Shown here in pieces: positions 2,791-59,410 of a stretch of 64,000 nucleotides of DNA (position 1 is its first letter; each line of letters starts with the position of its first letter). The notes beneath the pieces were generated by a model that was given only the letters and a program-made list of their open reading frames with translations, was not told where the DNA came from and made no database searches. A program made the translations under genes and the position numbers. This DNA is from Chiloscyllium plagiosum. Its lineage: Eukaryota. The stretch spans positions 16,635,532 through 16,699,531 of the forward strand of contig NC_057719.1 in NCBI RefSeq assembly GCF_004010195.1. The letters run 5' to 3'.

Positions 2791-3265
2791 AGATTTGGAG
2801 GTGCCGGTGTTGGATTGGGGGTGTACAAAGTTAAAAATCACACAACACCGGTTTTAGTCCAACAGGTTTAATTGGAAGCACACTAGCTTTCGGAACACCG
2901 CCCCTTCATCAGGTGGTTTTCCGATGAGCCACCTGATGAAGGAGCGACGTTCCGAAAGCTACTGTGCTTCCAATTAAACCTGTTGGACTATAACCTGGTG
3001 TTGTCATTTCCAATTTTTTAATGCCACCTCCATTGGTGGCTGTTAATGATGAAGGTAGTCATAATTTGGATATGCCGGTGTTGGACTGGGGTGTACAAGG
3101 TTAACAATCACACAACACCAAATTATAGTCCAACAGGTTTTATTGGAAGCACTAGCTTTCGGAGCGCCGTTCCTTCATCAGGCAACCATTTGATGAAGGA
3201 GTGGTGCTCCGAAAGCTAGTGCTTCCAATTAAACCTGTTGGACTATAACCTGGTGTTGTGTGATT
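2791..3265. mobile_element. Two tandem palindromic PLE family D mini-elements inside an L2-like remnant
   Basis: Each ~210-bp unit is an inverted repeat (cacaacacc...ccaacaggttt...ttcatcagg / ctgatgaagg...aaacctgttgg...ggtgttgt). The same terminus ends the element at 46013-46398. Confidence 0.8.
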
Positions 3266-4539
3266 TCCAATTTTTTAATGCCACCTCCATTGGTGGCTGT
3301 TACTTCATCTGATAAGCTCTGAAGCTCAAGAATTTCCTCCCTGCCTCACTTTACCTTGTCTGTCATTCTCTCGAACTCTCCTTAAAAACTAAACTTATAT
3401 TCATCTTCCCTCAAGCTTGTAATGTTTATGTGGTCCACACGTTCTTGTTGTGTACTTTTGGGATGTTTAAAGGCTCTGTATGAGTACAGGTTGTTGCATG
3501 TTCACATTGTGTGCACAAGAAAAGGTAGGTCTCTTCCATAAAATCCAAGCTCTTGATCAGCAGGAGCAGCTGTTGCATTACCAACCCTAGTCCACCCCTT
3601 CTCCCCAATCAACTCCACATACCAGGAAACCGACCAACCAATGGGCATGCTAATGGAAATTGCCAAACGTTTTGTTTTTAGACAGAGTGTGAAGGATACG
3701 GATGTGGCCCATATTTATTGCCCTTTAAGACCATAAGAAATAGGAGCAGGAGTAGATCATTTGTCTCTTCAAGCACTCTGTGCCAATCAATAGTATTGTA
3801 TCTGATCCGATATTCCTCACATCCACTTTTATAAATGACTCTCACAGCAATAAGAATGATCCGCATAGTGTCTGAGTCACATCACAGTGGTAAATTCACT
3901 TGACCAAAAGACATCAGTAAACCAGGTGACGTTTTACTACAATCTAACTGGTTTCATGGTTATTTTATCTGATAGTAGCTTTCAAATTCCCTTATTTCCC
4001 TTGACTTTTCATCACCTCTTAATTGTGAGTTCAATACCAAAAGTAGTAGTATTTTGGACCATACCATACACTCTGAAAGGTGGAACTATGCCTTGTCACT
4101 TTTATTAAATGTTTGACCAGTCAACTTGAACCAAACTAGATGCTTTATTTTCTGAATCAGCTTAATTTACTTCATTGTAATTTATTTTTAAAACATTACA
4201 TCTTTGGGTTTTTGTCAAAATGATGACCTCAGTGTTGGCTGCCAACAATATTTAGAGTTACAAAGCCTTTGTGATCTCTTGTATCCTGTTCTCAGTTGAA
4301 GACAGATGATCAAAACTCACTACCAGTTAGTACTGTCCAGAAAGATATTCCAGCCTTAAACGTCACTTTCTGACAGAGGGTTCAATAGATGTTGCCATGA
4401 CAAACATCTCCTATTACATTTTTAATAAGTTGTGTTACCAGAGTGTGAAACTTAGAGAATGGGTGGCACTCATCGCTGTATCTGCCAGGGCCGTACTTTA
4501 GGAGTTGTCAGTTTTTGCTTTGAAAGGCTCTATACCTGC

Positions 4540-4791
4540 CCCTCCCCCTAGTCCCTCCTCCCTACCTTTTGTCTTAGCCTGCTGGAGTCTCACCTATCAC
4601 CCTCACCTTGACCTTTTTCCACCTATCACATTTCCGACGCCCCTCCCCCTAGTCCCTCCTCCCTACCTTTTATCTTAGCCTGCTGGACAAACTTTCCCCA
4701 TTCCTGAAGAAGGGCTTATGCCCGAAACGTCGATTCTCCTGTTCCCTGGATGCTGCCTGACCTGCTGCGCTTTTCCAGCAACACATTTCCA
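4540..4791 (+). mobile_element. PLE family A terminal fragment with 13-bp TSD
   Basis: TSD gctctatacctgc at 4527-4539 and 4792-4804; internal duplication of the C-rich segment; intact hammerhead motif. Confidence 0.85.
4700..4735 (+). ncRNA. Minimal hammerhead ribozyme motif (PLE family A)
   Basis: attc-CTGAAGA-a-GGGC ttat GCCC-GAAAC-GTC-gatt: conserved core, 4-bp stem II, palindromic ACGT stem III, GUC cleavage triplet. Confidence 0.75.
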
Positions 4792-6285
4792 GCTCTATAC
4801 CTGCTTATCAAGGCATTGATGTTCAACGTAAGGAATGGTAAGAATGCTGGCAGCCCTTCAATAAGCAGTAAAACCGGTTTTGCAAACCAGACCATTAACT
4901 TTTCTGAGTCTTTACTGTTTCACTGTAATTTTGGTGTATTTCCCCAGAAAGCAGCTGCTGAAAATATTGTTTAAAATTCTCCCCAAGAGAAAAAGTGACA
5001 ATTACACTCAGCCCCACACCCACGTGTGACTGCCACTTCCTAAAATGCAATTAAACCTCTTTACTCAAGAGACTGCGGAGTTGGCTGTCACAACAAGTAA
5101 TTGAGGCAAAAATAGCTTAGGTGCTTGGAAAAATAAACTCTGACACGCATTGAGAGGAAATATGGATGTATGGAAGGGCTAAGATGAGAAAAGGTGGAAT
5201 AGAAAGAGAATCATGTGGAATTTAGTCAGTAGCATGGACCAATTGAAATGAATGGTCTGTTTCTGTGCTCACAGAACTATCCAACTCTTAAATGTTGTGA
5301 TTCACACTGAAAGGCAATCAGATTTCAGAGCGTTTGTCAAAAGCACCATGTTCAATCTAACATGTCTCTGCTCGTGTTTATGTTACACCCAAGTCCCCAC
5401 CTACTTCATCAAGTCCTATCTACTTACCTTTCTAATATTTGTCAACAACTGAGAACTGATGCAACAGGGCGTAACTGAGGATTTGGTTCATAATCAGCTT
5501 GCCATTGTAGGTAGGAGGATTGGGATTGCAGTTTTCTTTATCCTTCGCCACAAGCCCATAATAATACATTTATCCCAAAAGACAGTCATGTCCTCCTTCA
5601 CCTCAGTGTAACTATTTGTTATTTCTTAAGTGATTCAAGATTTTGTCTCTATTTTGACGTCAAGCAATCAACTTGGTCATTGAAATCTTTGGAAAAACAA
5701 ACTTTGATATGTCAGTTTTAAATTTTCCATCTTACTTGGTTGAGCCTAAGTAATCTTAACCTTCTTTGAGATTTTAGTTGGAAGTAGGGGTTATGATCTA
5801 CATTCATACACATTTATTATTTAAAGATGCTGTACTAAAACCCGTATAAGTTTGCTGTAGCATAGAAAGAGGACATTCAGCCTCTCAAGTCTACACAAGC
5901 TCTCTATAGGGTAATCAGATAAAGTAAGACTTTGCCTTTCAAGTCTGATTCGGCTTTACTCGTGCCCCTGCACTTAAACCACTGAGTCACACTTGAATAT
6001 TTCCTGCTTGTGTTGGTGATTAGCTTGTGCCCGAGGGCAACTCCAAGTATTGTCATCCCTCAACCTGTGGCCATGCCTTCTAGATGCTAAACTCTGGAAC
6101 TCCCTGCCTAACCCATTGCACCCTTCTCTCGCTTCCTTTTAAGATAGCCCTGACAGCCTATTTTAGTGTGCTGTATTGTAGCCAGAAATAGGTGGCCTCT
6201 GGCACCAATGTTAATTTGTAGAGGAATTGTGACAATGTTAATGGTATGGAATTGCAGGCAGGCGTGTTATGAATTATTGCTGTAA

Positions 6286-6412
6286 TAGAGATGTACAGCA
6301 TGGAAACAGATCCTTTGGTCCAACCCGTCCATGCTGACCAGATATCCCAACCCAATCTAGTCCCACCTGCCAGCACCCGGCCCATATCCCTCCAAACCCT
6401 TCCTATTCTTAT
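6286..6412 (-). mobile_element. CR1 3' tail
   Basis: Reverse complement of the CR1 3' UTR seen at 1095-1227. Confidence 0.8.
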
Positions 6413-8245: not shown

Positions 8246-8261
8246 ATAAGTTTTTAACAGG

Positions 8262-8385
8262 TTGATCACATTGCTGTTTATGGGAACTTGCTGTGCCGTC
8301 ATTGGGCATCATGCCTTCCACATTACTGTAGTTCCTGAAACATTTTTAGTATCATGGAAAAGGAGACACATTGTTAAAGCTTCTT
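8262..8385 (+). mobile_element. DeuSINE-like remnant
   Basis: atcacattgctgtttatgggaacttgctgtg resembles the Deu-domain 3' part, also seen inverted at ~57430-57500. Confidence 0.45.
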
Positions 8386-11222: not shown

Positions 11223-11281
11223 AAAGTAATTAGGGAACTCTAACTTTCTCAGGCCACTGCCTTTACCTCAATTATATGCAT

Positions 11282-11354
11282 CACCTGAACAGGGACTTGA
11301 ACCCTGGACCCTCAGATTAAAAGTCTGATGCTCTACTGACGAAGCTATCTGGGC
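11282..11354 (-). tRNA. tRNA-Lys(UUU) copy, probably a pseudogene
   Basis: Reverse complement GCCCAGATAGCTTCGTCAGTAGAGCATCAGACTTTTAATCTGAGGGTCCAGGGTTCAAGTCCCTGTTCAGGTG (73 nt) matches vertebrate tRNA-Lys3. Anticodon and T arms are intact. About 6 substitutions, mostly CpG-type, break the acceptor stem and the D-loop GG. No oligo-T terminator follows immediately. Confidence 0.85.
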
Positions 11355-14109: not shown

Positions 14110-16080
14110 TTCAAACTGGTTGAGGAAGGTTTATCATGGAACTTCCCAGCGGTCAGTATGTGGACCCTTGCTTTTCCTGATATATATATTAATGATCTAG
14201 ATCATGATGTGCAGTGGAAAGTTTCAGAGTTTGCAGATGACTCTACACTTGGAAGAATTGTGAAGTGTGAGCAGTGTGGAACTCCAAAGGACATTGACAA
14301 GTTGGTGGAGTGGGCTGCTAGGTGGCAGTTAAGGCTTAATGCAAAGAACTGCTAGATGAAGCATCTTTGTCATAAGAACATGGATAGACAATATAATAGA
14401 AGGGGTACAGTTTGAAAAGGGGTGCAGAAGTACCTGTGTGTACATGCGCACAGATCAATGAAGGTGGAAGGACAGCATAAGAATTAGTAAATTTGCAGAT
14501 GACACCAAAGAAGGTTACCTCAGAGTAGGAGAAAGTGAGGACTGCAGATGCTGGAGATCAGAGCTGAAAATGTGTTGCTGGAAAAGCGCCGCAGGTCAGG
14601 CAGCATCCAAGGAGCAGGAAAATCGACGTTTCGGGCATGAGCCCTTCTTCAGGAATGGGGAAAGTGTGCCAAGCAGGCTAAGATAAAAGGTAGGGAGGAG
14701 GGACTTGGGTGAGGGGCATTGGAAATGCGATAGGTGGTCGTGTTGCTATGGTCTGGCGATGGAGGAGTCCAAGGACCTGCATGTCCTTGGTGGAATGGGA
14801 GGGGGAGTTGAAGTGTTGAGCCACGGGGTGGTTGGTTGGTTGGTCCGGGTATCCCAGAGGGGTTCTCTGAAACATTCCGCAAGTAGGCGGCCTGTCTCCC
14901 CAATATAGAGGAGGCCACATCGGGTGCAGTGGATGCAGAAAATGATGTGTGTGGAGGTGCAGGTGAATTTGTGGCGGATATGGAAGGATCCTTGGGGCCT
15001 AGGGGGGAGGTGTGGGCCCAAGTTTTGCATTTCTTGCGGTTGCAGAGGAAGGTGCTGGGAGTGGAGGTTGGGTTGGTGGGGTGTGTGGACCTGACGAGGG
15101 AGTCACGGAGGGAGTGGTACCTCAGAGTACAATGGGATCTTGATCAGATAGGCAATGGGCTGAGGAGTGGCAGATGGAGTTTAATTGAGATATATTTGAG
15201 ATACTGCATTTTGGAAAGGCAAATCAGGGCAGGACGCATACAGGGCTCAGGCCCAAAATGTCAATTCTCCTGCTCCTTGGATGGTGACTGACCTGCTGTG
15301 CTTTCTCAGCACCACACTCTTGACTCTGGTCTCCAGCATCTGCAGTCCTCACTTTCTCCTAGTATACACTTAATGATAAGGTCCTGTGGAGTGTTGCTGA
15401 ATAAAGAGACCTTGGAGTGCAGTTTCAGCAGTTTCAAAGTTCCTTGAAAGTGGAGTCCCAGGTAGATAGGATAGTGAAGAAGGCATTTGGTATACTTGCA
15501 TTTATTGGTCAGTACATTGGGTATAGGAGTTGGGAGGTCATATTACATCTGTACAGAACATTGGTTAGGCCACTTTGGAATATTGCATGCAATTCTGGTC
15601 TCCCTGCTATAGGAAGGATGTTGTGAAACCTGAAAGAGTTCAGATAAGATTTACAAGGATGTTGCTGGGTTGAAGGGTTTAAGCTATGGGAGAGGCTGAA
15701 TTGGCTGAGGATGTTTTCCCTAGAGCATCAGAGGCTGAGGGGTGACCTTATAGAGGTTTATAAAATCATGAGGGGTATGGATAGGATAAACAGACACTGT
15801 CTTTTCCCCGGGGTGGGGGAATCCAAAACTACGGGACATAGGTTTAAGGTGAGAAAGGAGAGATTTAAAATGAAACTAAGGGGCAACATTTTCACACAGA
15901 GGGTGGGGAGTGTATGGAATGAGGAAATGGTGGCGGCTGGTACATTTACAACATTTAAAAGGCATCTGGTTGGGTGTATGCGTAGGAGGGGTTTGGAGGG
16001 ATATGGGATATCTGGTCGGCATGGGTGAGTTGGACCAAAGGGTCTGTTTCTGTGCTGTATAGCTTTATGGATCTGTGACA
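14110..16080 (+). mobile_element. CR1 fragments (older plus younger) with two PLE insertions
   Basis: RT motifs (GPLLFLIY.NDLD, FADD), C-terminal ORF 15711-16028, CR1 tail. Confidence 0.82.
14528..15117 (-). mobile_element. PLE family A inserted in CR1 with 12-bp TSD
   Basis: TSD tacctcagagta at 14516-14527 and 15118-15129; HIIFCIHCTRCGLLYIGETGR GIY-YIG motif; intact hammerhead at 14621-14656 (-). Confidence 0.9.
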
Positions 16081-18376: not shown

Positions 18377-19470
18377 GGTAAAAACAATGACTGCAGATGC
18401 TGGAAACCAGATTCTGGATTAATGGTGCTGGAAGAGCACAGCAGTTCAGGCAGCATCCGAGGAGCAGTAAAATCGACGTTTCGGGCAAAAACCCTTCATC
18501 AGGAATAAAGGCAGAGAGCCTAAAGGGTGGAGAGATAAGCTAGAGGAGGGTGGGAGTGGGGAGAAAGTAGCATAGAGTACAATAGGTGAGTGGGGGAGGG
18601 GATGAAGGTGATAGGTCAGGGAGGAGAGGGTGGAGTGGATAGGTGGAAAAGGAGATAGGCAGGTAGGACAGGTCATGGGGACAGTGCTGAGCTGGAAGTT
18701 TGGAACTAGGGTGAGGTGGGGGAAGGGAAAATGAGGAAGCTGTTGAAGTCCACATTGATGCCCTGGGGTTGAAGTGTTCCGAGACGGAAGATGAGGCGTT
18801 CTTCCTCCAGGCGTCTGTGGTGAGGGAGCGGCGGTGAAGGAGGCCCAGGACCTCCATGTCCTCGGCAGAGTGGGAGGGGAGTTAAAATGTTGGGCCACAG
18901 GGCAATGTGGTTGATTGGTGCAGGTGTCCCGGAGATTTTCCCTAAAGCGCTCTGCTTGGAGGCGTCCAGTCTCCCCAATGTAGAGGAGACCGCATCGGGA
19001 GCAACGGATACAATAAATGATATTAGTGGATGTGCCAGTAAGACTTTGATGGATGTGGAAGGCTCCTTTAGGGCCTTGGATAGAGGTGAGGGAGGAGGTG
19101 TGGGCGCAGGTTTTACAGTTCCTGTGGTGGCAGGGGAAGGTGCCAGGATGGGAGGGTGGGTTGTAGGGGGGCGTGAACCTGACCAGGTAGTCACGGAAAG
19201 AACGGTCTTTGCGGAAGGCGGAAAGAGGTGGGGAGGGAAATACATCCCTGGTGGTGGAGTCCGTTTGGAGATGGCGGAAATGTTGGCGGATGATTTGGTT
19301 TATGCAAAGGTTGGTAGGGTGGAAGGTGAGCACCAGTGGCGTTCTGTCCTTGTTACGGTTGGAGGGGTGGGGTCTGAGGGCGGAGGTGCGGGATGTGGAC
19401 GAGATGCGTTGGGCATCTTTAACCATGTGGGAAGGGAAATTGCGGTCTCTAAAGAAGTAGGCCATCTGGT
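18377..19470 (-). mobile_element. PLE family A (subfamily variant), ~1.1 kb, with linker and GIY-YIG endonuclease
   Basis: ORF 18446-19504: PLVLTFHP...GTFPCHHRNCKTCAH...NIIYCIRCSRCGLLYIGETGR...VAQHFNSP, frameshifted. Hammerhead at 18471-18506. Confidence 0.92.
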
Positions 19471-21070
19471 CCATTTTCCTAGTCAGACATATTCTTTCAG
19501 CCATCTGTGCTTCATCCCAATGTTAAAAACCTCAATCTACTTTCTGCAGAGACACCTTGCTAGTTTGGGAGGACATCAGTCTGTTACTGGAGAGAGAGAA
19601 AAGGAGAGGGAGTGCTCCAGATCCATGAGCTTTGACAGGAACAGCCTACTGAAGAAATAATGGCAGTGTTTCCAGAGGTTTTGCCTGGCCTGCTGGGAGT
19701 TTCAAGCATTTTCTGTTTATTTTCCAAATTTCAGGCTTCTTTGGCAAAATTATAACTGGTGCTTTACCATATGGCACCTCTAAATGAGATTAGCAGCTAA
19801 ATGTTAAATTAGAAAGATAGCTCGCTTAGTTCATGCTTGACAAAAATTGATTGCGACTGCGTGAAATCTGTTTGATGCAGAACTCTTGCATATATATGAG
19901 TCTTGCTTTAAGATTGAAACCTTGAATCTAATCCCAGTGGTGCAAGTTGCTAACTCTTTCTGACTATGAAGTGATATCCTAATAAATTAAAATAACCATG
20001 AAAGGTAGTCAGCATGGGAAGGTGAGTAAGAATGGAGTGCTGCTCCTTATAACCTGTCGAAATAGGAGAGCTTTTGCACATTTTGAGGAGAGGTAAACGT
20101 TTATATTTCCTATCTGTGCCTCTGAATGAGCTCCATGTGTTTGCAAATTGTGTTCTTATGGGGTCTTTTGCAGCCTGCACTTATACTGGCTGCATAGTTG
20201 TGCTTTACTGTGGAAACGCAGGGTGACTGATAGTTGTGGTTCTGTTTGCCGAGCTGGGAATTTGTGTTGCAGATGTTTTGTCCCCTGCCTAGGTGACATC
20301 ATCAGTGCTTGGGAGCCTCCTGTGAAGCGCTTCTGTGATGTTTCCTCCGGTATTTATAGTGATTTGTATCTGCCGCTTCCGGTTGTCAGTTCCAGCTGTC
20401 TGCTGCAGTGGTCGGTATATTGGGTCCAGGTCGATGTGCTTATTGATTGAATCTGTGGATGAGTGCCATGCCTCTAGGAATTCCCTGGCTGTTCTCAGTT
20501 TGGCTTGTCCTATAATAGTAGTGTTGTCCCAGTCGAACTCATGTTGCTTGTCATCTGAGTGTGTGGCTACTAAGGATAGCTGGTCATGTCGTTTCGTGGC
20601 TAGTTGGTGTTCATAGATGTGGACCGTTAGCAGTCTTCCTGTTTGTCCTATGTAGTATTTTGTGCAGTCCTTGCATGGGATTTTGTACACTACATTGGTT
20701 TTGCTCATGCTGGGTATCGGGTCCTTCGTCCTGGTGAATTGTTGTCTGAGAGTGGCTGTTGGTTTGTGTGCTGTTATGAGTCCTAGTGGTCACAGTAGTC
20801 TGGCTGTCAGTTCAGAAATGTTTTTGATGTATGGTAGTGTGGCTAGTCCTTTTGGTTGTGGCATGTCCTCATTCCGTTGTTTATCCCTTAAGCATCTGTT
20901 GATGAAATTGCGCGGGTATCCATTTTTGGCGAATACATTGTATAGGTGTTCTTCTTCCTCTTTTTGCAATTCTGGTGTGCTGCAGTGGCCCTTTTGAATA
21001 GTGTCTTGATGCAACTTCTTTTGTGTGTGTTGGAGTGATTGCTTTCGTAGTTTAGGACTGTGTGTGTGGC

Positions 21071-21522
21071 TGTGGTGTAAAATTCCAAGCAGTGGAATGT
21101 GGTGAAACGGTTAAAAATTATGTCCCAATACATGTGTGAATCTAACCGGAATGGAGGTGTTGCTTAGTCCCGTGTGAATCTTCTTATCTGTATGTAACCA
21201 GAATGGAATGTGTTTTTTAGCCTTGCTCTGCTGTTCACATGAATGTTTATATCTGGAAGGGAGTATATCAGCTAGAAAAGTCTCCAGTTCGGTGAGTCTG
21301 CTCCGGGGTTACGTTTAACCGCCGAGCGTGGGTTGTTGGCAACCGCTCTACAAGAACTGACGGCTCCCAGTTTTTGTAACATGTAGAGTGAGTATAAACC
21401 AGACCCGTTGTGCGACACTGCGGGGAATAAAATGCCCATATTCTAGCAGTCTCGCCTCTTGGTCGTTTGTTCTGTGTCAGACTACTCTCCTACGAACCTG
21501 ACCTTGAGAATTTTTTAAAACA
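21071..21522 (+). mobile_element. Solo LTR inserted in the PLE
   Basis: TG...CA ends, 5-bp TSD gtggc (21066-21070, 21523-21527) whose removal restores the PLE sequence, TATAAA at 21393 and AATAAA at 21426. Confidence 0.85.
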
Positions 21523-22255
21523 GTGGCTTTCCTGTGTACCTTTGTGGTGAATTCTCCGTTCGGTGTTCTCTGTACCATCACGTCTAGGAATGGGAGTTGG
21601 TTGTCCTTTTCTTCCTCTCTAGTGAATCAGATTCCTGTGAGTGTGGCATTGATGATCCAGTGTGTATTCTCTATTTCTGTGTTTTTAATGATTACAAAGG
21701 TATCATCTACATGTCTGGATTAGAAACCTCTCCCACAGACAGCTCACAGACACGGAAAGAACAATACTGGCCAAGGGACTCAACTACAACCACAGGGACA
21801 CCAAGACAGCAGACTTCCTAGCAGCACTAGAATGCACACTCAGGAACAATGGACTGACAGAAGAGACACAACAAACAGTGAGACAAAGTATCGTACACCT
21901 GATAACAAGGAAAAGACAAACACACAACCTCAACACTAAGGAGAGGGAAGCATTAAAAGCACTAAGAAACGATAAGAACATAATCATACTACCAGCAGAC
22001 AAAGGCAGAATGACGGTTATCCTGGACAAAGCAGAGTACATCCAAAAAGCACAACAACTACTTGCAGATACCAACACCTACCAAAAGAGGGAGTTTGACC
22101 CCACCCCACAGCTCACCAATAGGATAAACAACACACTGAGGAACCTACAAAAAAACGGACAGATAACCAGGACGGACCTACAAAGAATGAAACCTGAAAG
22201 CAACAACACCCCCAGATTCTATGGACAACCTAAAGTGCACAATCCAGACATCCCA

Positions 22256-23031
22256 NNNNNNNNNNNNNNNNNNNNNNNNNNNNNNNNNNNNNNNNNNNNN
22301 NNNNNNNNNNNNNNNNNNNNNNNNNNNNNNNNNNNNNNNNNNNNNNNNNNNNNNNNNNNNNNNNNNNNNNNNNNNNNNNNNNNNNNNNNNNNNNNNNNNN
22401 NNNNNNNNNNNNNNNNNNNNNNNNNNNNNNNNNNNNNNNNNNNNNNNNNNNNNNNNNNNNNNNNNNNNNNNNNNNNNNNNNNNNNNNNNNNNNNNNNNNN
22501 NNNNNNNNNNNNNNNNNNNNNNNNNNNNNNNNNNNNNNNNNNNNNNNNNNNNNNNNNNNNNNNNNNNNNNNNNNNNNNNNNNNNNNNNNNNNNNNNNNNN
22601 NNNNNNNNNNNNNNNNNNNNNNNNNNNNNNNNNNNNNNNNNNNNNNNNNNNNNNNNNNNNNNNNNNNNNNNNNNNNNNNNNNNNNNNNNNNNNNNNNNNN
22701 NNNNNNNNNNNNNNNNNNNNNNNNNNNNNNNNNNNNNNNNNNNNNNNNNNNNNNNNNNNNNNNNNNNNNNNNNNNNNNNNNNNNNNNNNNNNNNNNNNNN
22801 NNNNNNNNNNNNNNNNNNNNNNNNNNNNNNNNNNNNNNNNNNNNNNNNNNNNNNNNNNNNNNNNNNNNNNNNNNNNNNNNNNNNNNNNNNNNNNNNNNNN
22901 NNNNNNNNNNNNNNNNNNNNNNNNNNNNNNNNNNNNNNNNNNNNNNNNNNNNNNNNNNNNNNNNNNNNNNNNNNNNNNNNNNNNNNNNNNNNNNNNNNNN
23001 NNNNNNNNNNNNNNNNNNNNNNNNNNNNNNN
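22256..23031. other. Assembly gap
   Basis: N run. Confidence 1.
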
Positions 23032-23352
23032 TGTGCTTATTGATTGTATCTGTGGATGAGTGCCATGCCTCTAGGAATTCCCTGGCTGTTTTCTGTTTGG
23101 CTTGTCCTATAATAGTAGTGTTGTCCCAGTCGAACTCATGTTGCTTGTGTGGCTACTAAGTACTTATTACAGCCAGGGAATTCCTAGAGGCATGGCACTC
23201 ATCCACAGATTCAATCAATAAGCACATCGACCTGGACCCAATATACCGGCCACTGCAGCGGACAGCTGGAACTGACAACCGGAAGCGGCAGATACAAATC
23301 ACTATAAATACCGGAGGAAACATCACAGAAGCGCTTCACAGGAGGCTCCCAA

Positions 23353-23392
23353 GCACTGAGGATGTCACCTAGATAGGGGATGAAACGTCTGC
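23353..23392 (+). ncRNA. Minimal hammerhead ribozyme motif (PLE family B)
   Basis: GCA-CTGAGGA-t-GTCACCT agat AGGGGAT-GAAAC-GTC-TGC, with stem I GCA/TGC; decayed inverted copy at 20269-20308. Confidence 0.72.
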
Positions 23393-23617
23393 AACACAAA
23401 TTCCCAGCTCGGCGAACAGAACCACAACAACGAGCACCCGAGCTACAAATCTTCTCCCAAACTTTGACTGATAGTGCCTGAAGAAACTGGGGCAAAGGCA
23501 CACACAATAGGGAGACCATTTCTTGTGTTTCTGTTTCAGTGGGAAGCAATGCCCTCTGATATGTACTTGCCATGTATGCTGGGAAATAATTTTCCAACAT
23601 GCAATACCTCTAGGAAT

Positions 23618-25166
23618 GCATAAATCCCCAGAACCTGATCATGTGTACCCTAGAACTCTGTGGGAAGCTAGAGAAGTGATTGCTGGGCCTCTTGCTGAGA
23701 TATTTGCATCATCGATAGTCACAGGTGAGGTGCCGGAAGACTGGAGATTGCCTAACATGGTGCCACTGTTTAAGAAGGGTAGTAAGGACAAGCCAAGGAA
23801 CTACAGACAAGTGAGCCTGACGTTGGTGGTGGGGGCAAGTTGTTGGAGGGAATCCTGAGGGACAGGATGTACATGTATTTGGAAAGGCAAGAACTGATTA
23901 GGGATAGTCAACATGGCTATCATGTTTCACAAACTTGATTGAGTTTTTTGAGGAAGTAACAAAGAGGATTGATGAGGGCAGAGCAATAGAAGTGATCTAC
24001 ATGGACTTCAGTAAGGCGTTCGACAAGGTTCCCCACAGGAGACTGGTCAGCAAGGTTAGATCTCAGGGAGAACTAGCAATTTGAATACAGAACTGGCTCA
24101 AAGTTAGAAGACAGAGGGTGGTGATGGAGGGTTGTTTTTTAGACTGGAGGCCTGTGACCAGTAGAGTGCCACAAGGATCAGTGCTGGATCCTCTACTTTT
24201 TGCCATTTATATAAATGATTTGGATGTGAGCATAAGAGGTATAGTTGGTAAGTTTGCAGATGACACCAAAATTGGAGGTGTAGTGGACAGCGAAGAGGGT
24301 TACCTCAGATTACAACAGGATCTTGATCAGATGGGCCAATAGGCTGAGACGTGGCAAATGAAGTTTAATTTGGATAAATGTGAGGTGCTGCATTTTGGGA
24401 AAGCAAATTATAGCAGGACGTAGACACTTAATGGTAAGGTCCTAAGGAGTGTTGCTGAACAAAGAGACCTTGGAGTGCAGGTTCATAGCGCCTTGAAAGT
24501 GGAATCGCAGGTAGAAAGGATAGTGAAGAAGGCATTTGGAATGCTTTCTTTTATTGGTCAGAATATTGAGTAGAGGGGTTGGGAGGTCATGTTGCGGCTG
24601 TACAGGACATTGGTTAGGCCACTGTTAGAATATTGTGTGCAATTCTGGTCTCCTTCCTATTGGAAATATGCTGTGAAACTTGAAAGGGTTCAGCAAAGAT
24701 TTACAAGAATATTGCCAGGATATGAGCTATAAGGAGAGGCTGAACAGGCTGGGGCTGTTTTCCCTGGAGCGTCAGAGGCTGAGGGATGATCTTATAGAGG
24801 TTTATAAAATTATGTGGGGCATGGATAGGATAAGTAGACAAAGTCTTTTCCCTGGGGTCGAGGAGTCAAGAACTAGAGGGCATAGATTTAGGGTGAGAGG
24901 GAAAAGATATAAAAGAAACCTAAGGGGCAACGTTTTCACGCAGAGGGTGATACATGTATGGAATGAGCTGCCAGAGGAAGTGGTGGAGGCTGGTACAGTT
25001 GCAACATTTAAAAGGCATTTAGATGGGTATATGAATAGGAAGGGTTTGGAGGGATATGAGCCGGGTGCTGACAGTTGGGATTAGATTGGGTTGGGATATC
25101 TGGTCGGCATGGACGGGTTGGACCGAAGGGTCTGGTTCCGTGCTGTCCATCTCTATGACTCTATGA
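23618..25166 (+). mobile_element. CR1 (HER1-like) LINE, 5'-truncated, containing the RT
   Basis: KSPEPD...VPEDWR..N.VPLFKKG...NYR, DFSKAFDKV, VPQGSVL, FADDTKIGG; stops and frameshifts; (ctatga)n tail. Confidence 0.93.
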
Positions 25167-28089: not shown

Positions 28090-29425
28090 GCTGAAAATGT
28101 GTTGCTGGAACAGCGCAGCAGGTCAGGCAGCATCCAGGGAACAAGAGAATCGACGTTTCGGGCATAAGCCCTTCTTCAGGAATGAGGAAAGTGTGTCCAG
28201 CAGGCTAAGATAAAAGGTAGGGAGGAGGGACTTGGGGGAGGGGCGTTGGAAATGCGATAGGTGGAAAGAGGTCAAGGTGAGGGTGATAGATCAGACTGGG
28301 GTGGGGGCGGAGAGGTCAGGAAGAAGATTGCAGGTTAGGAAGGCAGTGCTGAGTTCGATGGATTTGACTGAGACAAGGTGGGGGGAGGGGAAATGAGGAA
28401 ATTNNNNNNNNNNNNNNNNNNNNNNNNNNNNNNNNNNNNNNNNNNNNNNNNNNNNNNNNNNNNNNNNNNNNNNNNNNNNNNNNNNNNNNNNNNNNNNNNN
28501 NNNNNNNNNNNNNNNNNNNNNNNNNNNNNNNNNNNNNNNNNNNNNNNNNNNNNNNNNNNNNNNNNNNNNNNNNNNNNNNNNNNNNNNNNNNNNNNNNNNN
28601 NNNNNNNNNNNNNNNNNNNNNNNNNNNNNNNNNNNNNNNNNNNNNNNNNNNNNNNNNNNNNNNNNNNNNNNNNNNNNNNNNNNNNNNNNNNNNNNNNNNN
28701 NNNNNNNNNNNNNNNNNNNNNNNNNNNNNNNNNNNNNNNNNNNNNNNNNNNNNNNNNNNNNNNNNNNNNNNNNNNNNNNNNNNNNNNNNNNNNNNNNNNN
28801 NNNNNNNNNNNNNNNNNNNNNNNNNNNNNNNNNNNNNNNNNNNNNNNNNNNNNNNNNNNNNNNNNNNNNNNNNNNNNNNNNNNNNNNNNNNNNNNNNNNN
28901 NNNNNNNNNNNNNNNNNNNNNNNNNNNNNNNNNNNNNNNNNNNNNNNNNNNNNNNNNNNNNNNNNNNNNNNNNNNNNNNNNNNNNNNNNNNNNNNNNNNN
29001 NNNNNNNNNNNNNNNNNNNNNNNNNNNNNNNNNNNNNNNNNNNNNNNNNNNNNNNNNNNNNNNNNNNNNNNNNNNNNNNNNNNNNNNNNNNNNNNNNNNN
29101 NNNNNNNNNNNNNNNNNNNNNNNNNNNNNNNNNNNNNNNNNNNNNNNNNNNNNNNNNNNNNNNNNNNNNNNNNNNNNNNNNNNNNNNNNNNNNNNNNNNN
29201 NNNNNNNNNNNNNNNNNNNNNNNNNNNNNNNNNNNNNNNNNNNNNNAAGTCCCTCCTCCCTACCTTTTATCTTAGCCTGCTGGACATACTTTTCTCATTC
29301 CTGAAGAAGGGCTTATGCCCGAAACGTCGATTCTCTTGTTCCCTGGATGCTGCCTGACCTGCTGCGCTGTTCCAGCAACACATTTTCAGCTCTGATCTCC
29401 ATCATCTGCAGACATCACTTTCTCC
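28090..29425. mobile_element. Palindromic PLE family A insertion spanning a gap, ~15-bp TSD
   Basis: TSD cccatatccctctaa on both sides; inverted termini with intact hammerheads at 28148-28183 (-) and 29297-29332 (+). Confidence 0.88.
28404..29246. other. Assembly gap
   Basis: N run. Confidence 1.
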
Positions 29426-46012: not shown

Positions 46013-46398
46013 CTGTTATTTCACTTTTTAGATTAGAATCAATCTAAACATCGGGTCATAGACAGAGAACACAGGGGGCTAACACCTTCAACATATTGTC
46101 TGGCTATCACCATTGGTACCGGCTAACCCGAGAATGCAACTTTTAAAAAAAGGGTTTTGTGATTTACACATGAAAGAAGTGAAACTATCACTGTATTCTA
46201 ACAGATGAAAGGCTTAACAGACAATCAATTTTTCAATGTATAATTTCAGTTACATCACACTGTAAATTTTTGCTATAAATTCTGTGTTACGATCGAGCCC
46301 TCCACTATCACCTGATGAAGGAGCGTCGCTCTGAAAGCTAGTGTGCTTCCAATCAAACCTGTTGGACTATAACCTGGTGTTGTGTGATTTTTAACTGT
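46013..46398 (+). mobile_element. PLE family D 3' region next to a gap
   Basis: Ends in the terminus shared with 2791-3265; contains a hammerhead. PLE assignment rests on the ribozyme and architecture, since no ORF is seen. Confidence 0.7.
46309..46343 (+). ncRNA. Minimal hammerhead ribozyme motif (family D)
   Basis: CAC-CTGATGA-a-GGAGC gtc GCTCT-GAAA-GCTA-GTG, with stem I CAC/GTG and palindromic AGCT stem III. Confidence 0.72.
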
Positions 46399-46414
46399 GT
46401 AAATGAATGAAATG

Positions 46415-47030
46415 TAGGCTTTTGCTGCAAGGAAGATTGAATATAAAAGTGTGTATATCTTGCTCCGACTTGGCAGGGTATTAGTGAGGCCACAGATAAA
46501 GTACTGTATGCAGTTTTGATCTCTTTATTAAAGAAATACTATGGTTCTGTTGGAGGCAGTTCAGAAAAAGTTTTACTAGATTGATATCTCAGATGAAGAG
46601 GTTGTCTTTATGAGGAACGTTTGAGCAGGTTGGGCTTAACATGTTTCGAGTTTAGAAGGAGAGACAATCATTTTGAGACATATTGTTCCTCAGGATTTGA
46701 CAGGGTAGACACTAATGGGAAATTTGCCCTGAGATGAATCTACAACTAGGAGATATATATTCAGAAATAGAGGTCTCCCCTTCAAGACAGAGATTAGGAA
46801 GACTGTCTTCTCTCGGGATCATAAATCTTTGGAATTCTGTACCACAGGGATCCATGGATGCTGACTCAAAGAAATTTACAATGTTGAAATAGACAGATGC
46901 TTTTATCTACAAAGGAGCCATTACAGGAGACAGACAGGAAAATGTAACTAAAGCTGATCAGCCATTATCTTATTGAATGGCAGACTAGGCTTGGGGGTCA
47001 ATTGGCATATTCCAACTCCTATTTTTTAAA
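46415..47030 (+). mobile_element. Old CR1 3' fragment
   Basis: Degenerate ORF2 C-terminal motifs (ttagtgaggccaca, tactgtatgcagttttg, tatgaggaacgtttg). Confidence 0.65.
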
Positions 47031-47983: not shown

Positions 47984-48112
47984 ATTCCTGAAGAAGGGCT
48001 AATGCCCGAAACGTCGATTCTCCTGTTCCCTAGATGCTGCCTGACCTGCTGCGCTTTTCCAGCAACACATTTCCATCTCTGATCTCCAGCATCTGCAGAC
48101 CTCACTTTCTCC
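47984..48112 (+). mobile_element. PLE family A terminal repeat beginning at the hammerhead
   Basis: attcCTGAAGAagggctaatgcccGAAACGTCgatt...ctcactttctcc. Confidence 0.85.
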
Positions 48113-48518
48113 TATTCATATACCCACCCAGATGTCTTTTAAATGTTGTAATTGTACCAGCCTCCACCACTTCCTCTGACAGCCCATTCCACACATGCAC
48201 CACCCTCTGCGTGAAAAAGTTGCCTCTTAGGTCTCTTTTATATCTTTCCCCTCTCACCCTAAACCTATGCTCTCTAGTCCTGGACTCCCCCACCCCAGGG
48301 AAAAGACTTTGTCTATTTATCCTATCCATGCCCTTCATGATTTTATAGACCTCTATAAGGTCACCCCTCAGCCTCCAATGCTCCAGCAAAAACAGCCTAT
48401 TCAACGTCTCCCTATAGCTCAAATGTCCAACCCTGGCAACATCCTTGTAAATCTTTTCTGTACCCTTTCAAGTTTCACAAAATCCTTCCGATAGGAAGGT
48501 AACCAGAACTGCACACAA
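48113..48518 (-). mobile_element. CR1 fragment
   Basis: ORF 48102-48422 RLRGDLIEVYKIMKG...FFTQRVVHVWN. Confidence 0.9.
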
Positions 48519-52213: not shown

Positions 52214-52428
52214 AGCTGAAAATGTGTTGCTGGAAAAGCGCAGCAGGTCAGGCAGCATCCAAGGAACAGGAGAATCGACGTTTCGGGCATAAGCCCTTCT
52301 TCAGGACGTAACTGCTTATGCCCGAAATGTCGATTCTCCTGTTCCTTGGATGCTGCCTGACCTGCTGCGCTTTTCCAGCAACACATTTTCAGCTCTGAAC
52401 TCCAGCGTCTGCAGCCCTCACTTTCTCC
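52214..52428. mobile_element. Palindromic PLE family A mini-element
   Basis: TSD tgcttaagtaag(agct) at 52202 and 52429; inverted arms. Confidence 0.88.
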
Positions 52429-53982
52429 TGCTTAAGTAAGAGCTACATCATGTCGAATGATGAGTCACCATCACTCCTGAAGCTTTGCACTTGCAAGTTT
52501 CTCTCTTTTGGGTTTTCTGTGCATCTTTGATGCAGGATCACGTTATTTAAATGTGTCGGGAGAATCCACAACTGGAGAAGTGGAGATCTTTCTTTTGATG
52601 AAACATCACTGGACTCAGAGCGTTGACTCCGTTTTACTCTCCACAGGTACTGCCAGACCTGCTGAGTGTCTCCAGCACCTTCTGTCCTTCTTTGAGCTCT
52701 TACTCCATTAGTTGCACTTGATGGTGTAGGTATTGAGAAAAGAAGGACAGTTACAGTTACGTCAGTATGTGTGCGCAGTAAAGAACATGCAGAGAATGGT
52801 TTTCAAGGCTGGGTGGAGGGGCAGTGACATTGCTCTGCTGAAATAAGATGTGGGAAGAGCAGTACAACTCAGAGCTAAGAATGGCTGTGCTCAATGATTT
52901 GATGGCTTTGATCAAATAATTGTGCAGCACAGCTGGAAACCCTAGGTGACAACTGCAGTTTTATGAGTGAGGCATGTTATTGAAAATTAGTCACTTGTGC
53001 TTTATTACCCACCTCAGTCTTTTGGGTGGGCAGCTCTGCCAAACTAGAGCAAGTTGCTACACCAGACTTTCATAACACCTCTCTTTATTCAACTTGGCTG
53101 TTTACTGAAAAGTTGATACATTGTGCTTTATCAGAAACTGTGCACAATTATTTGAATTCTTGCAGGCAGTCAACTGATCGCTCCGGTCTAAGGCCAGGTC
53201 CATGTGGTGAATGGATCCTCAATTACAGTAACTAGCCTCTTCCATTCATGGAATCATAGAATCGTATAGTACAGAAGTGGCCCTTTGGCCCATCATGTCT
53301 GTACCATCAAAGCTACACTAAGTCGGCACTAGTTCCACTTTTCAGCACTATGCCCATAGCCTTGAATGTTTTATTTACTCATCCAAGTACTTTTTAATTC
53401 ATTTAATATTCTTTGTGCTTTTAATATTAGCCGTTGATAGAGTAAATAACTAAATGAAGAGTGAATGCACAGGCTGCAATTTCCAAGGAGTATCAATTTG
53501 TAACAGGCATTTTACAGAAAATTAAATGTTATAAAAGCAGCACTGATCACGTTTCCTGTATTCGTCCTTCCAGCAAGGCCACTGTTGCCTTGTCAGTGTT
53601 ATCTGACTGTCTCAGAATAAGCCCGGATTGCTGAACCATGGTGGCAGTCAACATCAAATGGTCTGATGTTTCATTTGATGCAGTGTGTCAGGGCAGCAGT
53701 TGGTGGCCTGGAACTCTGAGCTCAAAACATATAAAATGGCAATCCAGTACTTGTACACTGCTACTCATGTAACACACAAGAGTGCAGTCAGGTGTTGGAC
53801 TAATAGTACAAATTACAACCGCAATCAGGAAACCAGAATCTAAAGGGGGGGGGTGCAGAACGTTACAAATCTAAAGGAATTTACAGTGTGTTCTGCCAAG
53901 GGGAGTACCCTGGAACCATTACTGACTGTGCATTCCTGGCAGGCTGCACTGTATCTTTCTGTTTTGTTGTTGCTAGATGTTG

Positions 53983-54208
53983 AGCTGAAAAATGTGTTGC
54001 TGGAAAAGCGGAGCAGGTCAGGCAGCATCCAAGGAGCAGGAGAATCAACGTTTCGAGCGTAAGCCCTTCTTCAGGAATGCCTGAAGAAGGGCTTATGCCT
54101 GAAACGTCGATTCTCCTGCTCCTTGGATGCTGCCTGACCTGCTGCGCTTTTCCAGCAACACATTTTTTCAGCTCTGATCTCCAGCATCTGCAGTCCTCAC
54201 TTTCTCCC
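53983..54208. mobile_element. Palindromic PLE family A mini-element
   Basis: 15-bp TSD tgttgctagatgttg (53968-53982, 54209-54223); ~93-bp inverted arms; hammerhead on each strand. Confidence 0.9.
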
Positions 54209-56614: not shown

Positions 56615-57210
56615 CAGACACATTATTAGCCGAGTGAACCTTCAATACCAGTGTATCTCACTTTAGAGAAAGGGACCTAAATTGTTCACAGTATTCCAGG
56701 TTTGATTAGTGCCTTTTACAGTTGAGCAAAACCTCCTTGGTTTTACAAAACAACAAAAGCACTGTGGATGCTATAAATCAGAAACAAAAACAGAAATTGC
56801 TGGAAAACCTCAGTAGATCTGGTATCATCTGTGAAGAAAAATCAAATTTAACGTTTCAGATCGAGTGACCCTTCCTTCGAATTCAGTTCTGAGGAACAGT
56901 TCTGAGGAACCCAAAACATTAAATCTGATTTCTCTTCATAGATGCTGCCAGACCTGCTGAGCTTTGCCAGCAATTTCTGTTTTTGTTTTCTCCCTTTTTT
57001 TTGTACTCCATTCTCTTTGAAATAAATGTCAACAATCAGTTTACCTTCTCTATTACCTGCTGAGCTTGGATGTTAGCTTTTTGTGATCCAGGCACAAATC
57101 ACCTCCAAATCTTTCTACACTACAGCTGTTTGCAATCTTTTCCCATTTAAATAATATTTAACTTTTCTGTTCTTCCTGCCAAAGCACATAGTCTCATATT
57201 TTGCCATATG
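56615..57210 (-). mobile_element. Old CR1 fragment carrying a palindromic PLE family C insertion (~56745-56990)
   Basis: Arms gaaacaaaaacagaaattgctgg... / ...ccagcaatttctgtttttgtttt; CR1-like flanks. Confidence 0.65.
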
Positions 57211-57347
57211 GGAATAGACAATTTAACAATTTTACACACCAAGCATTTCCCTGCAGAAATGAGCTGCCCTGAGATATTGTTCCTGATATACTCCTGGCCT
57301 AAAATAATGCGATGTGATGTTAGTCAGCTGAGAAAGAAATAGGTGCA

Positions 57348-57790
57348 AAGACTTGCATTTGAATAGCACCTTTTCATTTCAGTATACACTAAAATGCTTT
57401 CCAACTCATCATGTACTTTTAAATTGTAGTCATTCTTAAAATGTAGAAAGCACAGCAGTTAGTTTGCCAGAGTGTACTTTCACAGACAGTAATGTGATAA
57501 TGATAGAAGAGTTTGTTTTTATCCCCACTGATGTTGGTTGAGGGAGAAATATTGATGGTAAAAGTCCTTATGTGTACTTTAACATGATGGGTGCAATGGC
57601 TGTGATTTGCTAAATTTTACCAGCTAGGATACTGGTGACACCCCTTACTTTGAAATAATGCTGCAGGATTTTATTTTTATGTTCACCTGTGAGCAGACAA
57701 GGCCTTAGTTTCCTAATTCTCTTGAAAGATAGCACTTCTGGCAGTGCAGCACTCCCTCAGAAAGACACTGCAGTGTCAGCTCAAATCTGT
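57348..57790 (-). mobile_element. DeuSINE-like (SacSINE1/AmnSINE-type) element
   Basis: cttgcattt..atagcacctttt tail, gatgttggttgaggga..aatatt and cagtgcagcactccctcag motifs recalled from Deu-domain SINEs; a second remnant lies at ~44690-44800. Confidence 0.6.
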
Positions 57791-57919
57791 GGAAAGTGCA
57801 GCACATCACCTATTCTTTCCGAAACAATGAATTTCAACCAGGACCTCTTTGGATCTTGTGTCTAAATAGTATCTTAAATAATATTTGGTAATCTCATCAA
57901 GTGTGAGACTCACAGAAGA

Positions 57920-59410
57920 CAAGGACAGTTTAGGGATAGTCAACATGGCTTTGTGCGTGCAAAATCATATTTCACTAAATTGCTCTGAAGAGGTGACAAG
58001 AAACATGTTATCTTACTGAGTCTGATGTGGGATGATTTGAAGTCATTGGGGATTTAGATCTATTGGAATAATTGTGTTTATACAGATCATTTTGCATAAG
58101 ACCAGAAAGCATGTAGGAGCAGATTGATGGAGGCAGAGCAGTAGACATGGTCTATATGGGCTTCAGCAAAGTATTCAACAAGGTTCCACATGGTAGACTG
58201 GTTAGTAAGGTTAGATCAATTGGTAAAAAATTGGATTGAAGGTAGGAGACAGAGAGTAGTGGTAGAGCAAAAACAGAAATTGCTATTAAAGCAGAGCAAA
58301 TCTGGCAGCATCTGTGGAGAGAAATTAGAGTTAGCGTTTCAATCCAGTGACTTCCTCAGAATGTGGTGGTAGAGGATTGCTTTTGGGACTGGAGGCCTGT
58401 GACTAGCTGGGTGCTACAAGGATCAGTGCTAGCTCCACTGCTTTTTGTCATTTATATAAATTATTTGGATGTGAATATAGGAGGTATGGCTAATAGGTTT
58501 GCAGATGACACCAAAATTTGTGGTGCAATGAACAGTGAAGAAGGTTACCTCAGAGTACAACAGGACCTTGATCAGATAGGCCAGTGGGCTAAGGAATGGC
58601 AGATGGAATTTAATTTAAGTAATAGTGAGGTGTTATATTTTGGTAAGGCAAACCAGGGCAGGACTTATACACTTAATGGTAGGACCCTCGGGAGTGCTGC
58701 TGAACAAAGAGATCTAGGGGTTGCAGGTGCATAGTTCCTTTAAAGTAGAATTGCAGGTAGACAGGGTAATGAAGAAGGCATTTGGCATACTACTCTTCAT
58801 TGGCCAGAGCATTGAGGTCAGAACATTGAGTGTAGGAACTGGGACATCTTGTTGCAGCTGTACAGGACACTTTTAGAATACTGCATACAATTCTGATCGC
58901 CCTTCTATCAAAAGGATTTTGTTAAACTTGAGAAGGTGCAGAAATGATTTACAAGGATGTTGCTAGGTCTGGAGGGTTTGAGTTATAGGGAGAGGCTGAA
59001 TAGACTGGGCTTTTTTTCCCTAGAAAGTCAGAGGCTGAGGAGTGACCTGATAGAGGTTTATACAACGGTGAGGGGCAGAGTTAAAATGAATAGCCAAGGT
59101 CTTTTCCTTAAGGTCAAGGTGTCCAAAACTACAGACCATAGGTTTGCAGTGAGAGGGGAAAGATTGAAAAAAGACCCTGAGGGATCCCTTTTTCATGCAG
59201 AGGGTGGTGTGTGTATGGAGCAAGCTGCCAGAGGAAGTGGTGGAAGTGGGTTTATTACAACATTTAAAAGACATCTGGATTGTATATGAATAGGAAGGGT
59301 TTGGAGGGATATGGTCCAAATGTTGGAAAATAGGACTGGATCAGTTTTGGATGACTGGTCAGCATGGATGGTTTGGACTATAGGGTCTGTTTCTGTGCTA
59401 TGATTCTATG
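57920..59410 (+). mobile_element. CR1 LINE with two internal insertions
   Basis: VLQGSVLAPLLFVIYIN...FADDTKI; insertions at 58001-58122 and 58268-58361 (PLE family C terminus). Confidence 0.9.

What the first reader, a model, noticed from the sequence alone, without database searches (positions are those of the whole stretch)
2881..58361. Four unrelated repeat families each carry a minimal hammerhead ribozyme
Seen: the core CTGANGA-hairpin-GAAA recurs in four different sequence contexts. Family A is CTGA[A/T]GAaGGGCnnnnGCCCGAAACGTC (4700+, 14621-, 18471-, 28148-, 29297+, 47984+, 52273-, 54043-/54080+). Family B is GCA-CTGAGGA-tGTCACCTagatAGGGGAT-GAAACGTC-TGC (23353+). Family C is CTGAGGAAGTCACTGGATTGAAAC (58330-58361-, decayed copies near 345 and 56848). 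Family D is CAC-CTGATGA-aGGAGCgtcGCTCY-GAAAGCTA-GTG (2881-, 2930+, 3150-, 46309+). Stems I and II differ between families but keep pairing, and stem III is a 4-nt palindrome (ACGT or AGCT). Established: Penelope-like elements carry minimal type I hammerheads with palindromic stem III that are thought to cleave as dimers. Inference: these shark families are a large, probably unannotated reservoir of self-cleaving RNA motifs.
Basis: partly seen in the sequence, partly recalled or inferred. Interest (0 to 1): 0.75.

Follow-up and report, generated by a model that had tools for sequence, protein, structure and literature searches.

The report
Penelope retroelement ends carrying hammerhead ribozymes
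The motifs are real and match the tiny self-cutting RNA already described for Penelope-like jumping genes; they sit in mostly short, decayed end-pieces of four such families, and in three families the pieces likely record where the element's capped RNA starts rather than where it would cut itself.

Summary
In detail: 12 of the 15 main sites pass a strict minimal-hammerhead test (13 in the window, 0.01 expected). All four families are pLTR ends of Penelope-like elements, where this ribozyme was described in 2014. A, C and D are Neptune-type and B is Poseidon-type; A and C are related. Exact motifs total about 100,000 in the genome, but many copies are decayed, most lack a same-strand partner, and head-to-head pairs fold into hairpins. 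No sign of cutting was found in DNA copy ends or in one RNA run, so an 'active reservoir' is unsupported. The extra anatomy concerns A, C and D. Copy 5' ends stop 4-8 nt before the core and about 31 nt after a TATA-position motif. In A and D they often follow an untemplated G, likely from the cap. D is polyadenylated about 30 nt after the predicted cut, while its DNA copies end further downstream. This suggests a U3-R-U5-like pLTR and strong-stop insertions (inferred). The scan noted the hammerheads, cap G and poly(A) signal before on other DNA. Cleavage is untested.

The parts
4700..4735 (+). Family A minimal hammerhead (C3 at 4704, predicted cut 4731|4732) at the 3' end of a longer copy
   Evidence: RNA reads have loose 5' ends at 4699/4700
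14621..14656 (-). Family A hammerhead; copy continues upstream into endonuclease remnants (14649-15143)
18471..18506 (-). Family A hammerhead (second subfamily) downstream of the element's coding end
18446..19522 (-). 3' part of the family A Penelope-like reading frame: RT thumb, CX4CxxC linker, GIY-YIG endonuclease with CxxC (frameshifted, 5'-truncated)
   Evidence: closer-to-intact relatives L129 and L132 match Pfam GIY-YIG; homologues carry RVT_1
28148..28183 (-). Family A hammerhead, inverted relative to 29297+ across an assembly gap
29297..29332 (+). Family A hammerhead
47984..48117 (+). Family A short copy: starts at the A 4 nt before the core, preceded by an untemplated G (47983), ends at the long tail
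52273..52308 (-). Family A hammerhead in a head-to-head pair (partner 52310+ truncated inside the motif)
53975..54205 (.). Family A head-to-head pair (C3 at 54074- and 54081+); folds as one long hairpin on either strand
2513..2548 (+).
23353..23392 (+). Family B (Poseidon-type) hammerhead; the element's ATG overlaps A9 and the start of stem II
20233..23470 (.). Family B insertion: inverted truncated arm (endonuclease 20289-20789-, decayed hammerhead C3 20305-), RT N-terminus 21692-22255+, gap, forward pLTR
58279..58363 (-). Family C short copy, decayed (no U16.1); further C remnants near 276-376-, 25398-25491-, 52597+, 56783-56991
2826..3271 (.). Two family D head-to-head pairs (C3 at 2912-, 2933+, 3181-, about 3188+); fold as hairpins
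46274..46397 (+). Family D pLTR: TATAAA 46274-46279, inferred start A 46304, hammerhead 46309-46343 (predicted cut 46340|46341), poly(A) hexamer position 46352-46357 (mutated in this copy), poly(A) site 46369-46372, GU-rich element behind

Best explanation
These motifs are the known minimal type I hammerhead in the pseudo-LTR (pLTR) ends of four Penelope-like retrotransposon families, scattered as mostly truncated, decaying copies that are likely inert as ribozymes. Shown: each family runs upstream into RT and/or GIY-YIG sequence, has the two-step 3' end (30-40 nt tail) and often forms head-to-head inversions. Inferred: in Neptune-type A, C and D the promoter lies just upstream, so the ribozyme is the first ~35 nt of the capped transcript. 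Reverse transcription likely starts 85-125 nt into that uncut RNA, runs off the cap (adding a G) and integrates as a short copy, which would explain the abundance. The ribozyme was conserved in the master elements and would cut only as a dimer or with the element's protein, as reported for other Penelope elements.
For: Strict motif 13 vs 0.01 expected. Majority sequences of copies anchored downstream of the motif keep the core in all four families, with compensatory stem I changes between related A and C. All 50 strict hits carry the extra nucleotide after A9, as in the 2014 consensus. Coding context; a pLTR-ORF-pLTR copy of B with an inverted upstream arm (L282). Two 3'-end clusters per family. 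5' ends in -12..0 vs -30..-13 from C3: A 78 vs 2 of 222, C 34 vs 0 of 75, D 30 vs 4 of 80. A conserved motif at about -31 from the start is in 45 of 52 long A and 17 of 19 long D copies, but in 3 of 70 and 0 of 29 short ones. Untemplated letter before the start, first 100 listed, counted by eye: A 56 G/28 A/16 T, D 60 G/12 A/28 T. Controls: 10 G one base further in, and 15 G/21 A/64 T in long copies. Poseidon RT starts internally on uncut RNA in vitro (PMC11167929).
Against: Family B shows no pile-up at the motif (0 of 23 in -12..0), so the start-site reading does not cover it. A has a shoulder of ends inside the core (46 of 222 at +1..+13), so RT pausing at the motif or resection contributes. 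C rests on few long references (3 in the sample plus 4 loci) and 4 G of 6 ends. The A upstream motif (TTATCT) is a weak TATA match. No transcription start was mapped directly. No pLTR-ORF-pLTR copy of A, C or D was found among the 20 stretches fetched. Clade names rest on the linker motif, not on a tree with named references.
Confidence: 0.8

Rival explanations
1. The dispersed copies are an active reservoir of ribozymes that cut host transcripts as cis or trans dimers.
For: About 100,000 exact motifs. Family reads are present in a poly(A) RNA run. 42 of 89 intact motifs have a same-strand, same-palindrome neighbour within 10 kb. For the A copy L009 and the C copy L070 the hammerhead stems are the minimum-energy fold.
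Against: Stem III is a 4-bp intermolecular duplex (about -3 to -4.5 kcal/mol). Only 4 of 89 have a partner within 500 nt. Head-to-head pairs sequester the motif. Intact core plus stem III is left in A 65 of 135, C 2 of 34, D 23 of 54, B 13 of 21, with CpG decay hitting the ACGT palindrome. Read depth is continuous across the cut and no place of many read ends is listed, although this library shows 5' ends poorly. Published monomers are inactive and dimers slow.
Confidence: 0.08
2. Cleavage at two tandem hammerheads makes a circular RNA, and copies come from reverse transcription around the circle (2014 model).
For: Proposed in PMC4209133. It explains long copies that run through the motif to the tail. 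The core is conserved between families. A tandem pLTR-ORF-pLTR copy of B exists.
Against: A circle has no 5' end at -4 or -8 and no cap, so it cannot produce the most common short copies. Copy ends at the cut (+28) are about 300 against about 240 at +29 (by eye). It could still account for long copies.
Confidence: 0.15
3. The short copies are separate non-autonomous elements (SINE-like or retrozyme monomers) transcribed as about 100-130 nt units.
For: Short copies outnumber long ones and have defined ends. Retrozymes derive from pLTRs (bioRxiv 10.64898/2026.07.22.740005).
Against: Short copies lack the upstream promoter motif. They share subfamily letters with long copies. No hammerhead tandem array is in the window. 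In D the poly(A) site lies before the copy ends, so a polyadenylated short transcript could not template them.
Confidence: 0.07
4. The 5' pile-up is RT stalling or template switching at the hammerhead structure, not a transcript start.
For: 46 of 222 A ends fall at +1..+13, inside the core. About half of the ends in -12..0 are head-to-head junctions with microhomology (38 of 78).
Against: There is a sharp cliff upstream of -12. The G excess lies exactly before the A of an initiator-like motif, at different offsets in A (-4) and D (-8), and is absent one base further in. The promoter motif keeps the same spacing. B has the same ribozyme and no pile-up.
Confidence: 0.12

Closest known systems
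Minimal hammerheads (min-HHR) in pLTRs of metazoan Penelope-like elements, Cervera and De la Pena 2014 (PMC4209133; parts 1-2 of 4 and supplement file 2 part 2 of 3 read)
   Same: Core, extra nucleotide after A9, G10.1-C11.1 pair, palindromic 15.2-16.2, short stem I, several families per genome, mostly single truncated copies, opposite-strand pairs.
   Different: No cartilaginous fish in the text and alignment I saw (one search found no shark terms; supplement file 1 could not be searched). Counts here are at least 100,000 against about 4,000 (coelacanth) and 9,000 (Xenopus), by different methods. Family A stem I can be as short as 2 bp.
Poseidon element PAc of Anolis, Frangieh et al. 2024 (PMC11167929; parts 1-2 of 4 read)
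   Same: Family B has the same layout: ATG at the start of stem II, AC-rich tail, two 3' ends. Uncut RNA as template and no RNA-seq ends at the cut agree with what is seen here.
   Different: A, C and D are Neptune-type with the motif at the inferred transcript start. The parts read do not describe capped-end short copies or a poly(A) site in the pLTR.
Neptune and Penelope/Poseidon clades, Craig et al. 2021 (PMC8557442; passages read)
   Same: C-terminal GIY-YIG with CxxC between GIY and YIG; CX2-5CxxC linker in A and D, absent in B; pLTR, optional 30-40 bp tail, inverted truncated copy.
   Different: Nematis also has the linker and was not excluded by a tree.
Non-LTR retrozymes (bioRxiv 10.64898/2026.07.22.740005; parts 1-2 of 5 and passages read)
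   Same: Type I hammerhead derived from pLTRs; reported in one chondrichthyan genome.
   Different: Defined by tandem units each with a hammerhead; the copies here are dispersed single ends or inverted pairs.
Retroviral and LTR-retrotransposon U3-R-U5 layout and strong-stop DNA (recalled, no call)
   Same: In D: promoter upstream, capped start, poly(A) site 60 nt on, RT start sites downstream of the poly(A) site.
   Different: No tRNA primer site or integrase; priming is at nicked target DNA; strand transfer is not shown; A (main subfamily), B and C have no such poly(A) signal.

Membership tests
min-HHR of Penelope-like elements | Core CUGANGA...GAAA...UH with stems I and II | tested here: met
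min-HHR of Penelope-like elements | One extra nucleotide between 9 and 10.1; G10.1-C11.1 pair | tested here: met
   50 of 50 strict hits have one insertion with 0-2 allowed; pair seen in all four majority sequences
min-HHR of Penelope-like elements | Palindromic 15.2-16.2, no loop III | tested here: met
   ACGT in A, B, C and AGCT in D in majority sequences anchored outside the motif
min-HHR of Penelope-like elements | Located in the pLTR of an RT/GIY-YIG element | tested here: met
min-HHR of Penelope-like elements | Self-cleavage as dimer or with protein help | not testable with these tools
   needs an assay; RNA reads show no ends at the cut but come from a poly(A) single-cell library
EN+ Penelope-like element | RT followed by C-terminal GIY-YIG with CCHH-type cysteines | tested here: met
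   A: Pfam GIY-YIG, 34 of 38 longer homologues carry RVT_1. B: RVT_1, endonuclease 36% to A. D: RVT_1 below cutoff (E 3e-5), 32-34% to A. C: remnants 32-49% to A
EN+ Penelope-like element | Optional 30-40 nt tail and inverted 5'-truncated copies | tested here: met
   C long tail seen only
EN+ Penelope-like element | Partial tandem pLTR-ORF-pLTR | tested here: inconclusive
   seen for B (L282, L113); not found for A, C, D in the stretches fetched
Neptune clade (A, C, D) | CX2-5CxxC linker between RT and endonuclease | tested here: met
   read by eye in A and D; C inferred from similarity to A
Neptune or Poseidon clade | Placement in an RT tree with named references | not tested
   no named reference set was fetched; Nematis not excluded
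Penelope/Poseidon clade (B) | No linker zinc finger before the endonuclease | tested here: met
   L118 translation, by eye
Non-LTR retrozyme | Tandem units each with a hammerhead | tested here: not met
   no such array in the window; 4 of 89 motifs have a same-strand partner within 500 nt
Rfam hammerhead families | Match to a covariance model | tested here: not met
   none among 21 matches at E up to 5

The most novel reading that the evidence does not exclude
In Neptune-type elements the pLTR works like a retroviral U3-R-U5. The hammerhead sits in an R region between the capped start and (in D) the poly(A) site. Target-primed reverse transcription starts downstream of R on the 5' copy, runs to the cap, and then either integrates as a short copy or jumps by R homology to the RNA's 3' end, which regenerates the pLTR. 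The short copies would be a genome-wide record of strong-stop DNA in a non-LTR-type element.
Probability: 0.25. Interest if true: 0.7.

Novelty: new member of a known kind. Interest (0 to 1): 0.35.

Why it matters
As a ribozyme finding it extends a 2014 class to a genome where it is very abundant, which is modest news. The more useful part is the anatomy. How Penelope elements rebuild their pseudo-LTR and what the hammerhead does are open questions (PMC2377424, PMC8557442). Thousands of copy ends point to a capped start at the ribozyme's first bases and to uncut RNA as template. In D the RT start sites lie beyond the poly(A) site. These give exact positions for 5' RACE, cleavage and strand-transfer tests. 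D copies also offer over 40,000 ready poly(A) signals to host transcripts.

Tried and rejected
Rfam scan: no hammerhead match. Pfam on the window's truncated frames: no family for the five Penelope pieces; hits came only from longer copies. Cut-site pile-up: about 30 of the first 100 of 989 matches have foreign sequence before +28 and about 33 of the first 100 of 738 before +29 (by eye; 6 and 4 internal deletions set aside); 3 of 222 sample ends lie at +28; no clear excess. Cap G carried into long copies, a possible sign of strand transfer: not seen. The script version of that test used faulty patterns and was uninformative for A1 and D. Inversion flags were over-called and redone. The core-versus-flank identities (A 0.98 vs 0.88) mix subfamily differences with my selection of copies, so they are not used as proof of selection on copies. 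Search for full tandem A and D elements in 20 stretches: none; the D 'tandem' in L277 is two separate insertions. Sequencing runs: no RNA holder listed in the index; run X20 laid 0 reads, no test. Lunse et al. (dimer cleavage) is not held and is known only from a review's passage and reference list. Literature searches found no paper on shark Penelope hammerheads or on capped-end short copies; most subscription papers and Repbase are outside this library, and supplements of the preprint were not seen.
Full report
Observation. A strict descriptor gives 13 motifs in 64 kb against a mean of 0.01 in 100 Markov shuffles. Rfam returns no hammerhead among 21 matches at E up to 5. Exact patterns in the 3.56 Gb genome match 79,576 (A), 12,186 (D), 8,091 (B) and 136 (C, an inferred motif of an old family) places, with 0 for the reversed controls. 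In 1,220,131 sampled bases there are 89 strict motifs, 40-212 per Mb by region. The sample includes the window and a C1 block picked after I saw dense hits, so the extrapolation of about 260,000 runs high; the three unselected 100 kb blocks give 140,000-220,000.

What the families are. All four are ends of Penelope-like elements. A lies downstream of a frame with a CX4CxxC linker and GIY-YIG endonuclease (window 18446-19522). Longer copies show RT motifs and match Pfam GIY-YIG, and 34 of 38 longer homologues carry RVT_1. C shares A's 3' flank and has endonuclease and RT remnants 32-49% like A, so A and C are relatives. D runs into a different RT, linker and endonuclease, 32-34% like A. B has an RT and a linker-less endonuclease; L282 shows pLTR-ORF-pLTR with an inverted truncated arm, and its ATG lies at the start of stem II. 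By the linker criterion of Craig et al. (PMC8557442, passages) A, C and D are Neptune-type and B is Poseidon-type; no tree was built. The families show two 3' ends 30-40 nt apart (C's long end), the known tail.

The motif. Majority sequences of copies anchored downstream of the ribozyme keep the whole core in all four families. N7, H17 and loop II vary. Between related A and C two stem I pairs change on both sides and stem II gains a pair. A fifth, B-like family changes one stem I pair on both sides. All 50 strict hits of the first sample carry one extra nucleotide after A9. This is the consensus of Cervera and De la Pena 2014 (PMC4209133; parts 1-2 of 4, supplement file 2 part 2), which reports inactive monomers and slow dimers.

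Are the copies active? Probably not. Among copies that include the whole motif, core and stem III are intact in A 65 of 135, C 2 of 34, D 23 of 54 and B 13 of 21, and CpG decay hits the ACGT palindrome. Of 89 intact motifs, 4 have a same-strand partner within 500 nt, 17 within 4 kb and 42 within 10 kb. The head-to-head pairs in the window fold into long hairpins that bury the core. In a poly(A) single-cell run labelled as the same species as the best DNA holders (X19, about 2% read), depth is continuous across the predicted cut in A and D, and no place of many read ends is listed. That library shows 5' ends poorly, and run X20 gave no reads. Genomic copies starting at the cut number about 300 against about 240 one base further on (first 100 rows classed by eye). 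Two earlier notes on other genomes saw a cluster at the cut; I see no clear one here.

Where copies begin. Anchoring downstream of the cut, I mapped 5' ends for 222 of 226 A, 75 of 82 C, 80 of 81 D and 23 of 23 B copies. Ends in -12..0 versus -30..-13 from C3 are 78 vs 2 (A), 34 vs 0 (C) and 30 vs 4 (D) (binomial p 4e-27, 1e-13, 3e-8); B has 0 vs 2. A check against long copies found 2 of 70 A short copies misclassified; the other high scores in A and D were inverted partners. Long copies carry a motif about 31 nt before the inferred start: TATAAA in D (17 of 19), TTATCT in A (45 of 52); short copies carry it in 0 of 29 and 3 of 70. The untemplated letter before the start is G in 56 of the first 100 of 8,926 A matches and 60 of the first 100 of 1,816 D matches (by eye). 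Controls: 10 of 100 one base further in and 15 G to 21 A in long copies. RNA reads of A have loose ends at the same place (81 and 144 reads). That RT copies a cap as an extra G is recalled knowledge. In C and one A subfamily, stem I is a perfect 4 bp ending exactly at this A. Against: 46 A ends lie inside the core, C has few long references, and no start was mapped directly.

Poly(A) in D. Of 3,145 reads laid on D, 360 and 454 carry untemplated A runs after 46369 and 46372, 13-15 nt behind an A(A/T)TAAA that is present in 73 of at least 83 copies. Genomic D copies end mainly at +80..89 (25 of 71) and +115..124 (30 of 71), none with an A tail. Genome-wide, 0 copies have an A run at the site and 41,463 continue. 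These reads may be host transcripts ending at dispersed copies. Still, RT starts lie beyond the poly(A) site, so long copies need read-through RNA, a circle or a strand transfer.

Mechanism. Frangieh et al. (PMC11167929, parts 1-2 of 4) showed that a Poseidon protein starts reverse transcription at two internal sites, uses uncut RNA, and is needed for ribozyme cleavage. Combining this with the data above (inference): the Neptune-type transcript starts at stem I, RT starts 85-125 nt in, reaches the cap and often integrates as a short copy or a fold-back pair. Whether it can jump to the RNA's 3' end through the repeated region is open; the one trace I looked for, cap G in long copies, is absent. 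Schostak et al. noted no obvious mechanism for pLTR regeneration (PMC2377424, passages).

Novelty. The ribozyme and its link to Penelope elements are known (also PMC6765202 and PMC6155905, passages). Penelope is listed for whale shark (PMC8455134, one passage), and a 2026 preprint reports hammerhead tandem repeats in one chondrichthyan (parts 1-2 of 5). Eight searches found no paper on these families or on capped-end copies, within a library that lacks most subscription journals. This scan has noted the motifs in 1,054 findings, including the cap G and the poly(A) signal on other DNA; these are unchecked notes, not support. My start-site idea was written down before that look-up, and the poly(A) site was seen. 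Verdict: new members of a known kind, with an inferred promoter and strong-stop anatomy worth a direct test. Interest 0.35.

Noticed in passing
window 11282-11354 (-): tRNA-Lys(UUU)-like gene (ARAGORN; Rfam 53 bits), with a poorly paired acceptor stem; pseudogene or SINE head.
   Followed up: no
window 62594-63640 (-): Fragments of a LINE reverse transcriptase (Pfam RVT_1) that look L1/Tx1-like by eye.
   Followed up: no
window 547-1228, 15574-16079, 24112-25167, 29489-29993, 36520-37568, 48110-48467, 58351-59422: Many truncated copies of a CR1-like LINE 3' end; the name HER1 is recalled, not tested.
   Followed up: no
sample blocks 'left' and others: Two more hammerhead families: a B-like one with a compensatory stem I change and a longer paired stem II, and an A/C-like one with stem I GUC/GAC.
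   Followed up: partly
window 4781; L003, L005, L009: One A subfamily has AATAAA about 80 nt after C3, and the loose-end consensus of its reads turns to A about 25 nt later; possible second poly(A) site between the two 3' ends.
   Followed up: no
family C, 20-25 nt after the predicted cut (loci; window 58310-58330 -): Branch-point-like, pyrimidine-rich run ending CAG followed by ATG, resembling a 3' splice site; A shares the sequence after it.
   Followed up: no
window 60958-61294 (-): Family A copy with an inverted upstream arm forming a 200-nt hairpin, the source of the miRNA-like Rfam hits.
   Followed up: partly
window 48443-48500 (-): Weak U6 5'-half match below the gathering score.
   Followed up: no
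window 46180-46420: D reads are strongly one-directional (about 1,330 vs 160 depth over the motif), unlike A, consistent with D copies acting as poly(A) sites for sense transcripts.
   Followed up: partly
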